This document shows, piece by piece, positions 48,810 to 51,623 of a stretch of DNA of 64,000 bases (the first letter of the stretch is position 1; the number at the start of each line of letters is the position of its first letter). A program made the translations under genes and the position numbers. The DNA is taken from the NCBI GenBank assembly GCA_045810225.1, contig JBJMWI010000080.1, positions 23 to 64,022 on the forward strand, in the 5' to 3' direction. This DNA is from Burkholderiales bacterium. GTDB taxonomy: Bacteria; Pseudomonadota; Gammaproteobacteria; Burkholderiales; JACQAP01. The notes under the pieces are model-generated. The model searched no databases, had not been told where the DNA came from, and saw only the letters and a program-made list of their open reading frames with translations.

Positions 48810-49346
48810 TTACTTCGTTTCCGCCATCTTCTTGACGTTCTGCAGGCCCGCTTGATATGCGCCGCTAATGGCCTTTTTGACGCTTGCATCGTCCTGTCCA
48901 GCCGGCGGATTGTCGGCCACCTTGCGCTTGAATTTGCCTTTCCAGACCATGGTCGACGTGCCTTTGGTTTTGCCGGACTTGACTTGAATAGTGGAAGAAT
49001 AATCCGCTACGGGCAGCGGCGAATCGGTGATGATCCGGTAACTGTACTTTTTCTGCTTGTCACTGAATCCGTCCAGTTCTTCGTTGAACGTCGCTCCGCC
49101 ATTAGCCATGGTTAACGTACGCACCGCGCCGACCTTATTATTCGTACCGGATTTGATTTCGGTGTTAGAGAAAGCCGGATGCCATTTGTGCAGGCCGTTC
49201 CAGTCCTTGACCAGGCTCCAGACTTTTGCAACAGGCGCGTTGATTTCAACGCTTTCGGTTACGTGCAAATATCCCGGCTTTGCCGCCGATGCGATGCCCG
49301 ACAACCCCAACAGCAGCCCTGCCGCGACCATATTGCTTATGTTCAT
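48810..49346 (-). CDS. exported SRPBCC/polyketide-cyclase family protein (MxaD-like)
   Basis: Signal peptide ending ASA, VEINAPVAKVWSLVKDWNGLHKWHP, GAVRTLT, YSYRI and PVADYSSTIQV. Confidence 0.82.
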   Translation of the reverse strand: MNISNMVAAGLLLGLSGIASAAKPGYLHVTESVEINAPVAKVWSLVKDWNGLHKWHPAFSNTEIKSGTNNKVGAVRTLTMANGGATFNEELDGFSDKQKKYSYRIITDSPLPVADYSSTIQVKSGKTKGTSTMVWKGKFKRKVADNPPAGQDDASVKKAISGAYQAGLQNVKKMAETK

Positions 49347-49479
49347 TCCTTTTCTCCCTTGTTCATGTCAGTAAACTTTGATACCGGTCGGCGAACCGGC
49401 ACGATTGTTCGGCCGGAAATCGCTGTCGCGTCCGGCGGGCCAGTATAGGTGGGCCGCGCCATCGCGGGCAAATAAGCGA

Positions 49480-50472
49480 TCAGGCGCGAGCAGGCGACCG
49501 TTCCCCGAAGATCGCACGCCCGACCCGTACCAGCGTAGCGCCCTCCGCAATGGCGGCTTCCAGATCGTCGGACATGCCCATAGACAAGGTATCCAGTTCG
49601 ATGCCGTGGCGAGTAATTTCCTCCTTAAGCTGCCGCACCACTCGGAAACGCGCCCGCTGCACGGCGCTATCGTCGGTAGGCTCGGGAATCGCCATGAGTC
49701 CTCTCAGCCGCAAAAGCGGTAGCTGGCTGACGGCCTGAGCCAGCCGGACAACGTCCTCGGGCTGAACACCGCTTTTGCTCTGTTCACCGCTGACATTGAC
49801 CTGGAGGCAGATTTGCAGCGGCCCCTTATGCGCAGGTCGTGCAGCGGAAAGCCGTTCGGCTATTTTGATGCGGTCAACCCCATGCACCCAGCTGAAGTGC
49901 TCTGCAATCTGACGCGTTTTGTTGCTCTGGATCGGACCGATGAAGTGCCACTCCAGAGGCAGGAGCAGGGGACCCGCTTGCGGGGATGCGACCCCGGCGG
50001 TGTGGCGCATGTCGCCCGCCTCTTGTTCTCCTTGCCGCTGTCCGGACGCGTCATGCCACTCCAGAGGCAGGAGCAGGGGCCCCGCTTGCGGGGATGCGAC
50101 ACCGACGGAGGGGCGCATGTCGCCCTCCCGTTTTTCTGCGTCCTGCGGTCCTGAGGCGTCATGCCACTCCAGAGGCAGGAGCAGGGGCCCCGCTTGCGGG
50201 GATGGCTCTTGCCGCTGCACTGCGACGTCACCCAATTTAGCGGTCGCAATGCCCGGCATAAGAGCCAAAGCCTGCATTTTTCCCAGCGCTTCCTGCAAAT
50301 AGTTCTCTCCAAACGCACATTGGCCTGCGGCGTGCGCTTCTGCCACGGCAGCTGGCGAGAACGTCTTGCTGACCGCAAGCAGCCCGATGTCATCCGGGCA
50401 TCTGCCCGCGCTTAGGGCCGCTGCGCGTATGCGGTCGCGTACGGCTTGCAAGCGGGCCGCTATTATGGTCAT
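49480..50472 (-). CDS. yggS: YggS family PLP-homeostasis protein carrying an in-frame repeat insertion of about 100 aa
   Basis: LLAVSKT (PLP Lys), FGENYLQE, WHFIGPIQSNK, VNVSGEQSKSG, LRGLMAIP, LSMGMSDD and VRVGRAIFG; 330 aa versus about 230 aa typical. Confidence 0.92.
   Translation of the reverse strand: MTIIAARLQAVRDRIRAAALSAGRCPDDIGLLAVSKTFSPAAVAEAHAAGQCAFGENYLQEALGKMQALALMPGIATAKLGDVAVQRQEPSPQAGPLLLPLEWHDASGPQDAEKREGDMRPSVGVASPQAGPLLLPLEWHDASGQRQGEQEAGDMRHTAGVASPQAGPLLLPLEWHFIGPIQSNKTRQIAEHFSWVHGVDRIKIAERLSAARPAHKGPLQICLQVNVSGEQSKSGVQPEDVVRLAQAVSQLPLLRLRGLMAIPEPTDDSAVQRARFRVVRQLKEEITRHGIELDTLSMGMSDDLEAAIAEGATLVRVGRAIFGERSPARA
49946..50230. repeat. in-frame tandem repeat with a 108-bp period inside yggS
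   Basis: The core TGCCACTCCAGAGGCAGGAGCAGGGG(A/C)CCCGCTTGCGGGGATG starts at 49946, 50054 and 50162. Two 61-bp linkers are 46/61 identical by hand alignment, and a shortened third linker lies at about 50205-50230. Confidence 0.95.
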
Positions 50473-50582
50473 AATCCTCTTGCATTCTTCATTGTAACCA
50501 TCGAATGCAGCGAGCATTTTTGTTCTGGGCCGAAGCCGCCGGCATAGGTTGTTCCCATACTCTTGTGGCCGGAGAACCGTTG

Positions 50583-51623
50583 ATGGACATTGCTGAGCTC
50601 CTCGCGTTTGTGGTTAAAAACAAAGCTTCCGACTTGCATCTATCCGCCGGTCTTCCTCCAATGATCAGGGTGCATGGCGACATCAGGCGCATCAATTTGC
50701 CGCCCATGGAACACAAGGACGTGCATGCCATGGTCTACGACATCATGAACGATGGTCAACGCAAGTTCTACGAAGAGAACCTCGAGTGCGACTTTTCCTT
50801 TGCGATCCCAAATCTGGCCCGTTTTCGCGTCAATGCCTTTGTCCAGAACCGCGGAGCCGGCGCGGTAATGCGGACCATCCCGTCCAAGGTGTTGACCCTT
50901 GAGGAGCTTAAGGCGCCCGTCATCTTCAAGGAAATTGCCCAGTACCCGCGCGGCGTGGTGTTGGTGACCGGCCCCACCGGTTCAGGCAAGTCCACCACGC
51001 TTGCAGCCATGGTCAATGACATCAACGAGAACGAAATGGGTCATATTTTGACGGTGGAGGACCCGATCGAGTTTGTGCACGAAAGCAAAAAATGCCTCAT
51101 CAACCAGCGCGAAGTCGGCCCGCATACGCTGTCGTTCAATAATGCGCTTCGCAGTGCGCTGCGCGAGGACCCCGATATCATCCTGGTGGGTGAACTTCGC
51201 GATCTCGAAACCATCCGCCTCGCCTTGACGGCAGCCGAAACCGGCCACCTGGTGTTCGGGACATTGCACACCAGTTCTGCCGCAAAGACGGTGGATCGCA
51301 TCATCGACGTGTTTCCCGCGGCGGAGAAGGAAATGGTGCGGGCGATGCTTTCAGAATCGTTGCGTGCCGTCATTTCGCAGACACTGTGCAAGACCAAGGA
51401 TGGCACTGGCCGGGCCGCGGCACACGAGATCATGATCGGCACTCCGGCCATTCGAAATCTGATCCGCGAAGCCAAGATCGCACAAATGTATTCTGCAATC
51501 CAGACCGGCCAGGGGCTCGGGATGCAGACGCTGGATCAGAATCTGACTGAGCTGATCAAGCGCAACATCATCACCAAGGAAGAGGCGCGCGGGAAGGCTG
51601 CGAATAAGGACGCTTTCAACTAA
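50583..51623 (+). CDS. pilT: type IV pilus retraction ATPase
   Basis: ASDLHLSAG, GPTGSGKSTT, EDPIEFVH, LREDPDIILVGELRD, TLHT and AIRNLIRE. Confidence 0.96.
   Translation: MDIAELLAFVVKNKASDLHLSAGLPPMIRVHGDIRRINLPPMEHKDVHAMVYDIMNDGQRKFYEENLECDFSFAIPNLARFRVNAFVQNRGAGAVMRTIPSKVLTLEELKAPVIFKEIAQYPRGVVLVTGPTGSGKSTTLAAMVNDINENEMGHILTVEDPIEFVHESKKCLINQREVGPHTLSFNNALRSALREDPDIILVGELRDLETIRLALTAAETGHLVFGTLHTSSAAKTVDRIIDVFPAAEKEMVRAMLSESLRAVISQTLCKTKDGTGRAAAHEIMIGTPAIRNLIREAKIAQMYSAIQTGQGLGMQTLDQNLTELIKRNIITKEEARGKAANKDAFN

What the first reader, a model, noticed from the sequence alone, without database searches (positions are those of the whole stretch)
49946..50259. In-frame 108-bp tandem element with palindromic cores expands YggS by about 100 aa
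Seen: three near-identical cores (47 bp with one mismatch between copies 1 and 2; 43 bp identical between copies 2 and 3) at an exact 108-bp period. They are separated by 61-bp linkers only 46/61 identical, plus a deleted third linker that keeps CTTGCCGCTG...CGTCA. The core carries a REP-like palindrome CCCCGC-AA-GCGGGG, and linker 2 has an imperfect hairpin (ACGGAGGGGCG...CGCCCTCCCGT). The protein reads [D...SPQAGPLLLPLEWH] three times, triplicating the native LEWH strand just before FIGPIQSNK, and all PLP motifs stay in frame. Inference: near-identical cores with diverged linkers are not expected from one simple duplication. Repeated insertion of variants of a small palindromic element with target duplication (comparable to Rickettsia palindromic elements), or gene conversion of the cores, fits better. 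This could be an undescribed coding-compatible repeat family.
Basis: partly seen in the sequence, partly recalled or inferred. Interest (0 to 1): 0.75.

Follow-up and report, generated by a model that had tools for sequence, protein, structure and literature searches.

The report
Hairpin repeat array inside yggS gene
The yggS gene of this uncultured soil betaproteobacterium carries three in-frame tandem copies of a 108-base unit built around a small hairpin repeat that is scattered through related genomes. The copies add a floppy loop of about 100 residues, and their number changes between close relatives, which is known behaviour for REP- and BRE-type bacterial repeats.

Summary
YggS (minus strand, 330 aa against about 231) holds 2.4 to 3 units at an exact 108-bp period.

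The conserved core, TCGCATCCCC-loop-GGGGCCCCTGCT, belongs to a REP-like hairpin family:
- The own genome has only the yggS copies and one intergenic relic.
- In congeners and many uncultured Burkholderiales it is dispersed: inside a 365-bp MITE, between genes, in frame in pirin, dnaE2-like and rlmN genes, and often in tandem arrays of 107-116 bp.
- 63 loop variants keep the stem complementary.

The yggS insert is old and always sits at the same site. At least 74 YggS protein clusters carry it. Copy number runs from 0 to 3 among near-identical backbones, and a same-species variant has one unit.

The linkers occur only in yggS, so the array grew by local duplication and loss, not by repeated insertion. 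The cores stay alike through nucleotide-level constraint or conversion: synonymous-site identity is 0.80 in the core against 0.44 in the gene.

AlphaFold2 predicts a disordered loop with the last LEWH as the barrel strand.

No Y1 (RAYT-type) transposase link, Rfam family or BRE similarity was found. Intragenic and tandemly reiterated REPs, and BRE repeats that vary in copy number, are already published. This is therefore a new family of a known kind.

The parts
49480..50472 (-). yggS (PLP-binding protein of the YggS/PROSC family), 330 aa from MTIIAARL. An upstream in-frame ATG at 50517 would give 345 aa.
   Evidence: ORF list. Pfam PF01168, E 6.5e-22, residues 8-325. Single copy in the genome. 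AlphaFold2 gives a confident TIM barrel outside the insert.
49946..50053 (-). Tandem unit nearest the conserved FIGPIQSNK. It encodes DASGQRQGEQEAGDMRHTAGVASPQAGPLLLPLEWH, and its LEWH is the working beta-strand.
   Evidence: AlphaFold2 places a strand at residues 175-178.
50054..50161 (-). Middle tandem unit, encoding DASGPQDAEKREGDMRPSVGVASPQAGPLLLPLEWH.
   Evidence: Its linker resembles the only unit of the same-species variant P0054.
50162..50230 (-). Shortened first unit (in coding order). The core is kept and the linker has lost 39 bp. It encodes DVAVQRQEPSPQAGPLLLPLEWH.
   Evidence: (family D3). Relatives P0012, P0015 and P0019 have longer versions of this unit.
49964..49991 (-). Family core, copy 1: TCGCATCCCC-GCAAGC-GGGTCCCCTGCT, with one G-to-T change in the 3' half.
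50072..50099 (-). Family core, copy 2: TCGCATCCCC-GCAAGC-GGGGCCCCTGCT. With one further base on each side, the 31-mer is found 100% identical at many dispersed loci in congeners.
50180..50204 (-). Family core, copy 3, lacking the 5' TCG: CATCCCC-GCAAGC-GGGGCCCCTGCT.
50104..50130 (-). Linker hairpin (GGGAGGGCG-ACATG-CGCCCCTCC on the coding strand). Together with the core it forms the roughly 63-nt stretch that also occurs in the pirin gene and other loci of congeners.
   Evidence: (hits covering query positions 30-92), and the fold.
49946..49956 (-). CTGGAGTGGCA (LEWH) direct repeat, also at 50054-50064 and 50162-50172. It bounds each unit and offers homology for gaining and precisely losing units.
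   Evidence: families D5-D7. The insert-free allele L012 sits next to the insert-bearing P0061 and P0063 in the tree.

Best explanation
A REP-like hairpin element settled long ago, in frame, in the loop between helix alpha2 and strand beta3 of YggS, just before LEWH-FIGPIQSNK. This happened in an ancestor of a group of uncultured soil Burkholderiales. The element has an invariant TCGCAT-CCCC, a variable stem extension and loop, and an invariant GGGG-CCCCTGCT.

Since then the segment has behaved as a variable-number tandem repeat. Whole 105-108-bp units (linker, core and a copy of the LEWH codons) are duplicated and deleted by slippage or unequal recombination between the repeated core/LEWH blocks. 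The result is 0 to 3 units in close relatives and three in this genome.

The linkers drift freely because they encode a disordered loop. The cores are held nearly constant by a nucleotide-level force: either constraint on the hairpin and its flanking motifs, or gene conversion.

The protein tolerates the roughly 100 extra residues as a floppy surface loop, and only the last LEWH copy serves as the barrel strand.

Shown: the anatomy, the family, the copy-number turnover, the synonymous-site conservation and the predicted disorder. Inferred: the recombination mechanism, neutrality for the enzyme, and what maintains the core.
For: 1. The core is dispersed in relatives.
- It occurs in 32 of 37 genus genomes, up to 20 hits each, many 100% identical over 31 nt.
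- At least 120 stretches were found in uncultured Betaproteobacteria across the species-representative genome collection.
- Contexts: a 365-bp MITE, intergenic clusters, and in-frame inserts in pirin, dnaE2-like and rlmN genes.

2. The hairpin is selected.
- There are 63 distinct loops.
- They add 2.37 Watson-Crick pairs beyond CCCC/GGGG, against 0.42 +/- 0.10 in shuffles.

3. Tandem arrays with a 107-116-bp period are typical of the family. Examples lie at nuoA-nuoB, ftsE-ftsX, rplI-dnaB, accC-prmA and downstream of fabI.

4. The linkers are specific to yggS.
- No copy exists elsewhere in the own genome.
- In the genus, hits that reach query positions below 30 are all in yggS.
- Linkers of different species are homologous.

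5. Copy number turns over.
- 74 YggS clusters carry the insert.
- Pairs with near-identical backbones differ by one or two units: P0067/P0023, P0031/P0004, P0029/P0005, P0017/P0009 and P0044/P0010.
- P0054 has an almost identical backbone to the window's YggS but only one unit.
- L012 has no insert but sits next to P0061 and P0063, which do.

6. The core is conserved at synonymous sites: 56/70 against 277/629 in the rest of the gene, p = 1e-8.

7. AlphaFold2 gives pLDDT below 50 and no secondary structure for residues 77-176, a strand at 175-178 and a confident barrel elsewhere.

8. Published precedent. [quoted passage not shown] BRE repeats are tandem and vary in copy number between strains (PMC3110155).
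Against: - The own genome holds almost no other family member, so dispersal is inferred from relatives.
- No transposase or other partner was found. Y1_Tnp genes are not next to cores and their counts do not track core counts.
- How the first unit arose, with its LEWH duplication and 77-nt linker, is unresolved. My test for a local origin of the linker was flawed because the windows overlapped.
- Some arrays show the opposite pattern: near-identical linkers with different core loops (SPEGP and SPQAGP in P0002, P0010 and P0014). This needs core-specific conversion or mutation on top of plain unit duplication.
- A nested 99-nt palindromic piece in other yggS alleles is also more conserved than the gene although it is not dispersed. 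Conversion from dispersed copies therefore cannot be the whole story.
- No reads were available.
Confidence: 0.7

Rival explanations
1. Repeated independent insertions. Variants of a mobile palindromic element of about 95-108 bp inserted three times next to one another, each time duplicating the LEWH target.
For: - The core family is dispersed and sits in frame in other genes.
- The pirin insert is also 36 aa long and flanked by a direct repeat (RGPAR...RGPAR), in the same reading frame VASPQAGPLL.
- Different core-loop variants occur within single arrays.
Against: - The linkers are mutually homologous (46/61) and specific to yggS. No donor copy exists in the own genome or outside yggS in 37 genus genomes.
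- Only about 63 nt (linker hairpin plus core) are shared with other loci.
- Insert lengths in other genes differ: about 45-46 aa in dnaE2-like and rlmN.
- Arrays elsewhere have near-identical units, which points to recent local duplication.
Confidence: 0.1
2. A selfish cassette spread by recombination. The insert-bearing yggS segment moves between strains and species by homologous recombination through the conserved flanks (FGENY... and ...FIGPIQSNK). The palindromic modules then look younger than the gene around them.
For: - The core and the nested 99-nt piece are 0.80-0.90 identical between species and families whose flanking yggS DNA is 0.68-0.74 identical.
- The insert is patchy within the genus and present in another family, G027.
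- The own array combines unit types that occur singly in relatives.
Against: - The linkers immediately beside the modules are as diverged as the gene (0.71-0.74). Transfer of the whole segment would have carried them along.
- Constraint on the hairpins explains the same pattern.
- No recombination breakpoints were mapped.
Confidence: 0.12
3. The repeat is functional. It could be an mRNA or DNA structure regulating yggS, proC or the divergent pilT. Alternatively the repeated PLLLPLEWH peptide could add a useful property such as binding or localisation.
For: - The core is conserved at the nucleotide level across families.
- The array as RNA folds somewhat better than shuffles (z = -2.7).
- The insert has persisted in at least 74 YggS clusters.
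Against: - The same core sits in both orientations relative to transcription (51 against 20) and in unrelated genes and spacers.
- Single units do not fold better than shuffles (z about -0.5).
- Copy number varies from 0 to 3 among close relatives.
- The insert is predicted to be disordered.
- There is no Rfam match.
Confidence: 0.06
4. Assembly artefact. The metagenome assembler created or inflated the array.
For: The genome is a 205-contig metagenome bin. Reads could not be examined.
Against: - The exact repeats are only 43-47 nt and the three linkers are distinct.
- The reading frame is intact.
- Arrays of 2 or 3 units occur at the same site in many independent assemblies.
Confidence: 0.02

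Closest known systems
REP / BIME sequences, including intragenic REPs and REP clusters (Di Nocera, De Gregorio and Rocco 2013, PMC3733652)
   Same: - A short GC-rich hairpin with compensatory stem variation and conserved unpaired bases.
- Mostly just downstream of genes in operons.
- Some copies lie in frame inside genes, at loops or domain linkers, including a dnaE2-type polymerase.
- Clusters are reiterated in tandem together with flanking DNA.
- Abundance is patchy between species.
   Different: - The conserved motifs are TCGCAT (5') and CCCCTGCT (3'). There is no terminal GTAG or CGTC. GAGCAG could at most be a degenerate GW-GYAG set 4 nt away from the stem.
- No flanking RAYT gene was found.
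- The 22 invariant bases are shared across several families of uncultured Burkholderiales.
- Head-to-tail arrays predominate. That paper reports head-to-tail dimers as rare.
BRE, the Beta-proteobacterial repeat element (Hot et al. 2011, PMC3110155)
   Same: - Found in Betaproteobacteria, about 75-91 bp, GC-rich.
- Usually lies between genes, sometimes entirely within coding sequences.
- Organised in tandem, with copy number varying between strains (VNTR).
   Different: - There is no sequence similarity. Local alignment of the BRE consensus with the yggS and nuoA-nuoB units is no better than shuffles, and the own genome has no BRE hit.
- BRE units are bounded by T-runs, and these are not.
- Here each tandem unit carries a piece of duplicated host sequence.
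Rickettsia palindromic elements (RPE; as summarised in PMC3733652 and PMC10969869)
   Same: Palindromic elements of about 100-150 bp inserted in frame in housekeeping genes, translated and tolerated as surface loops.
   Different: - The sequence and the taxon are unrelated.
- RPEs are single insertions of a whole element. Here only about 30-63 nt are shared between loci and the rest of the unit is specific to the locus.
- Here there are tandem arrays with changing copy number.
REPIN / RAYT systems (from my own knowledge: Bertels and Rainey 2011; summarised in PMC3733652)
   Same: Inverted doublets of the core exist (L084-L086, and the MITE interior), and Y1_Tnp genes are present in most genus genomes.
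   Different: - The yggS units are direct repeats, not inverted doublets.
- No core lies within about 1.5 kb of seven Y1_Tnp genes.
- No gene resembling the own genome's Y1 transposase lies within 0.7 Mb of core-bearing loci.
- Y1 gene counts and core counts do not correlate.

Membership tests
REP-like dispersed hairpin repeats (broad sense) | A short palindromic unit present at many unlinked loci of a genome | tested here: met
   Relatives have up to 20 hits per genome on different contigs, and at least 120 stretches were found in the species-wide genome collection. This does not hold for the own genome, which has only yggS x3 and C28:76307.
REP-like dispersed hairpin repeats (broad sense) | A hairpin maintained by compensatory changes | tested here: met
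   63 loop variants add 2.37 Watson-Crick pairs, against 0.42 +/- 0.10 in shuffles. Outer flanks also pair more than mismatched controls.
REP-like dispersed hairpin repeats (broad sense) | Predominantly extragenic, close to gene ends | tested here: met
   Of 104 copies, 69 are intergenic and 24 have no confidently called gene within 400 nt. Of the 11 inside open frames, 7 lie within about 21 nt of the frame's upstream end, which puts them ahead of the real start codon.
GTAG- or CGTC-tagged REP superfamilies (PMC3733652) | A terminal unpaired GTAG (or degenerate GYAG) or CGTC tetranucleotide directly next to the stem | tested here: inconclusive
   There is no GTAG or CGTC. The invariant flanks are TCGCAT and CCCCTGCT. 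On the other strand GAGCAG fits GW+GYAG but is separated from the stem by GGGG.
REP/RAYT (REPtron) systems | A Y1 (RAYT) transposase gene flanked by the REP | tested here: not met
   There is no core within about 1.5 kb of six genus Y1_Tnp loci or of the own C21 gene. tblastn finds nothing resembling the own genome's Y1 transposase in 0.7 Mb of core-bearing loci. Other transposase types were not examined.
BRE (Hot et al. 2011) | Sequence similarity to the roughly 90-bp BRE consensus | tested here: not met
   Local alignment scores fall within the shuffle distributions, and the own genome has no BRE hit at E of 0.1 or below. BRE sequences were taken from the paper's List S1.
BRE (Hot et al. 2011) | Tandem organisation with variable copy number at a locus, in Betaproteobacteria | tested here: met
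   This is a likeness in behaviour, not membership.
MITE | Terminal inverted repeats and a short fixed-length target-site duplication | tested here: not met
   The 108-bp unit has no terminal inverted repeats. Its flanking direct repeats are long and differ in length from locus to locus: an 11-nt LEWH repeat in yggS and about 14-20 nt in pirin. A true 365-bp MITE with 23-bp terminal inverted repeats merely carries the core inside it.
YggS/PROSC PLP-binding protein (host gene) | PF01168 fold with the conserved lysine and the FIGPxQSNK motif intact | tested here: met
   Pfam match, invariant columns including K36 and G179-K185, and the AlphaFold2 barrel.

The most novel reading that the evidence does not exclude
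The TCGCAT-CCCC...GGGG-CCCCTGCT hairpin marks an undescribed REP-like superfamily that spans the order in uncultured soil and groundwater Burkholderiales.

A still unknown enzyme that reads the conserved unpaired bases would cut and rejoin at the hairpin. This would copy the adjacent host sequence each time. It would explain three things together:
- the head-to-tail arrays of about 110 bp at stop/start junctions, each unit with its own Shine-Dalgarno sequence and start codon;
- the hypervariable disordered loops in housekeeping enzymes such as YggS, pirin, DnaE2 and RlmN.

The extra conservation of the palindromic modules would then reflect ongoing activity rather than passive drift.
Probability: 0.25. 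Interest if true: 0.6.

Novelty: new member of a known kind. Interest (0 to 1): 0.35.

Why it matters
- It documents, with many natural alleles carrying 0 to 3 units, how a hairpin repeat can live inside a conserved single-copy enzyme gene and expand and contract without breaking it.
- It defines a repeat family shared by many uncultured Betaproteobacteria. The family can break assemblies, inflate predicted proteins and mislead annotation.
- The strong conservation of 22 bases around a freely varying hairpin suggests a trans-acting partner worth looking for.
- For YggS itself the insert is probably neutral.

Tried and rejected
- Exact-protein look-ups: the DNA for P0054 could not be fetched, and P0001 is not on record.
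- Rfam: nothing on the MITE loci or on window 49300-50700, apart from a sub-threshold P31 hit at E 0.59.
- RAYT link: not found.
- REPtron-like pair in L155: the 4.9 kb between two inverted cores holds ppsA, ppsR, a SpoU methylase gene and rnhB, and no transposase.
- CRISPR-repeat likeness of GTCGC...CCCCGC: rejected, because copies are dispersed singly or in arrays with near-identical 'spacers'.
- Thermodynamic folding of single units is not better than shuffles, so the case for the hairpin rests on covariation.
- Test for whether the linker derives from upstream yggS sequence: invalid, because my upstream window overlapped the unit.
- Text search for the motif in papers: only unrelated hits.

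Full report
**1. What is there**

Window 49480-50472 (minus strand) is yggS.
- An in-frame ATG at 50517 is an alternative start.
- The protein matches Pfam PF01168 over residues 8-325.
- It is the only yggS in the 3.9-Mb, 205-contig genome.
- It is 330 aa long. Insert-free orthologues in the same genus are 226-232 aa.

The extra length is a tandem repeat.
- TRF reports a period of 108, 2.4 copies and no indels at 49946-50204.
- The first 47 nt of units 1 and 2 differ at one base, and units 2 and 3 share 43 identical nt.
- The 61-nt linkers of units 1 and 2 match at 46 of 61 positions.
- The third linker is shortened by 39 bp but keeps both ends.
- The contrast of 1/47 against 15/61 mismatches is significant.

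**2. The core is a dispersed hairpin element, but not in this genome**

In the own genome neither the core nor the linkers recur. The one exception is a core variant in a 380-bp block between two ABC permease genes at C28:76307.

In the other 36 genus genomes the picture is different.
- The 31-mer GTCGCATCCCCGCAAGCGGGGCCCCTGCTCC occurs 100% identical on many contigs, up to 20 hits per genome.
- Most identical copies lie inside a 365-bp MITE with 23-bp terminal inverted repeats.
- The own genome has no copy of this MITE.
- Other copies lie in intergenic clusters, in inverted doublets, inside long ORFs, and in tandem arrays in other genes.

- Nearly all hits come from MAGs of uncultured Betaproteobacteria. 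The labels include Casimicrobiaceae, Usitatibacteraceae, Thiobacillaceae, Sulfuricella, Gallionella and Nitrosomonadales.
- A few records labelled Klebsiella, Enterobacteriaceae or Streptomycetaceae also appear. These labels look doubtful.

Anatomy of the core:
- The invariant parts are TCGCAT-CCCC and GGGG-CCCCTGCT.
- Between them lie 63 different loops, which extend the stem by 2.37 Watson-Crick pairs on average. Shuffled loops give 0.42 +/- 0.10.
- The outer flanks also tend to pair.

This is the signature of a selected hairpin with conserved unpaired bases, as in REP elements.

**3. Where family members sit**

My rough gene calls for 104 copies give the following.
- 69 are intergenic.
- 24 have no confidently called gene within 400 nt.
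- 11 lie in open frames. Seven of these are within about 21 nt of the frame's upstream end, so they lie ahead of the real start codon.
- Orientation relative to neighbouring genes is biased 51 to 20 but not fixed. The yggS copies are in the minority orientation.

Head-to-tail arrays with a period of 107-116 bp are common. Examples:
- nuoA-nuoB
- ftsE-ftsX
- rplI-dnaB
- accC-prmA
- downstream of fabI
- gmhB-plsC

At stop/start junctions each unit repeats a Shine-Dalgarno-like GGAGG and an ATG or GTG (my reading of the sequences).

True in-frame inserts occur in three other genes. Each lies between Pfam domains.
- Pirin: 36 aa, flanked by an RGPAR direct repeat.
- A DnaE2-like polymerase: about 45 aa.
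- RlmN: about 46 aa.

Upstream of kdsA a displaced copy of the gene's first codons is fused to the element.

**4. History of the yggS insert**

The site is always the same, just before LEWH-FIGPIQSNK.
- Genus members carry 0, 1, about 1.5, 2 or 3 units. G045 has three 105-bp units.
- A genome of another family (G027) carries the insert with a nested extra piece of about 30 aa.

A search with the insert region found 74 protein clusters at 90% identity, all PF01168. Their linkers follow one pattern, VA(H/Q)G...GD(V/M)R(P/H)S(A/S)GVASP, so they are homologous.

On a tree of the backbone with the insert removed, unit number changes between near-identical sequences.
- Pairs differing by one or two units: P0067/P0023, P0031/P0004, P0029/P0005, P0017/P0009, P0044/P0010 and P0056/P0007.
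- The insert-free L012 sits beside the insert-bearing P0061 and P0063. That fits precise loss between the two LEWH repeats.
- P0054 has flanks almost identical to the window's YggS but a single unit. Its linker resembles the window's middle unit.
- The window's last unit resembles the last unit of P0012, P0015 and P0019.

The array therefore evolves by birth and death of local units. It does not grow by fresh insertions. In the genus, hits that include the linker part of the query are all in yggS.

**5. Why the cores stay alike**

Between the window and six more distant yggS genes:
- third-codon positions of conserved residues are identical at 56/70 sites in the core;
- they are identical at 277/629 sites in the next 150 codons (p = 1e-8).

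Between L003, L004 and L009:
- the core is 0.82 identical and the nested 99-nt piece 0.80-0.90;
- the adjacent linker is 0.71-0.74 identical and the gene 0.68-0.74.

So the palindromic modules are held constant at the DNA or RNA level, or they are renewed. Renewal by conversion is suggested by arrays whose linkers are nearly identical but whose core loops differ (SPEGP and SPQAGP in P0002, P0010 and P0014). Conversion from dispersed copies cannot explain the nested piece, which occurs only in yggS. I cannot separate constraint from conversion or horizontal spread.

**6. Effect on the protein**

AlphaFold2, run with a 46-sequence alignment, gives a confident barrel.
- Residues 77-176 have pLDDT below 50 and no secondary structure.
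- The last EWHF (residues 175-178) is a strand.

All 74 clusters keep the reading frame and the conserved residues. The insert is most simply a tolerated, disordered loop.

**7. Comparison with what is known**

- Di Nocera et al. 2013 (PMC3733652) describe intragenic REPs, including in dnaE2, and clusters encoding 43-82 aa in Thauera and Rickettsia conorii. [quoted passage not shown]
- Hot et al. 2011 (PMC3110155) describe BRE, a betaproteobacterial tandem repeat of variable copy number, sometimes inside ORFs. Its sequences show no similarity to this family.
- There is no GTAG or CGTC tag and no RAYT association.
- There is no Rfam family.
- The motif is absent from the searchable literature.

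The behaviour is known. The sequence family appears to be new.

**8. Verdict**

This is a real array that is very unlikely to be an artefact. It is a new family of a known kind of element, REP/BRE-like, caught in frame in yggS and behaving as a variable-number tandem repeat.

It is wrong about how the array grew.

Open points:
- what conserves the core and the nested module;
- how the first unit arose together with its host-sequence duplication;
- whether a dedicated enzyme exists.

Limits: no reads, gene contexts from rough ORF calls, and a biased sample of YggS because the search was seeded with the insert.

Noticed in passing
L071-L078 (e.g. G051:C18:392600-400600), element about 365 bp: A MITE with 23-bp terminal inverted repeats, TAGTGTCCTGTTCCGCTAATTCG. 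Copies are 91-93% identical within and between congeners, and many lie at contig ends. Its interior holds the core plus an inverted partner, GGGGCCCCTCTGGGGATCTGAC (REPIN-like). It is absent from the own genome and has no Rfam match.
   Followed up: partly
own genome C28:76190-76570 (outside the window): A block of about 380 bp between two ABC permease genes. It carries the core variant GTCGCATCCCCGATGAACCGGGGCCCCTGCTCC, GGGGATC motifs and a duplicated Shine-Dalgarno/ATGA junction.
   Followed up: partly
L003, L004, L009 and many P-proteins (e.g. L004 within 1288-2181): A nested palindromic piece of 99-105 nt (RQRDVDGA...SSVARAEAPRSGA) inside the yggS unit of some alleles. It has three inverted-repeat pairs. 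It occurs only in yggS in the genus, yet it is 0.80-0.90 identical across species whose yggS is about 0.70 identical.
   Followed up: partly
L168, L170, L112, L123, L166, L117, L133, L098: Head-to-tail arrays of the family (107-116 bp) at conserved housekeeping junctions: ftsE-ftsX, nuoA-nuoB, rplI-dnaB, accC-prmA, downstream of fabI, and gmhB-plsC. Many units carry GGAGG plus ATG or GTG. In the ftsE-ftsX case the mini-ORFs are chained by ATGA overlaps.
   Followed up: partly
L089 and L091 (G023:C137, G048:C164): Upstream of kdsA, a displaced duplicate of the first kdsA codons (GFDVGLDRPLFLIAG...) is fused to the hairpin element and followed by the intact gene.
   Followed up: no
own genome C21:12594-13553 (outside the window): The single Y1_Tnp (RAYT-like, YHITSRG motif) gene of the genome, in a 320-aa open frame. 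Its downstream flank shows a different short repeat, translated repeatedly as ...GQALPFACS.../...GLAFCLL.... That repeat may be its own REP family.
   Followed up: no
window 50472-50590: The starts of yggS and the divergent pilT are ambiguous. The longest ORFs (yggS from 50517, pilT from 50505) would overlap head to head. The conserved N-termini suggest MTIIAARL (50472) for YggS and MDIAELLAF for PilT.
   Followed up: no
L119, L152, L160, L167, L174: A few core-bearing contigs are labelled Klebsiella pneumoniae, Enterobacteriaceae or Streptomycetaceae MAGs. Given the high-GC betaproteobacterial look of the flanks, these are probably binning or labelling errors.
   Followed up: no
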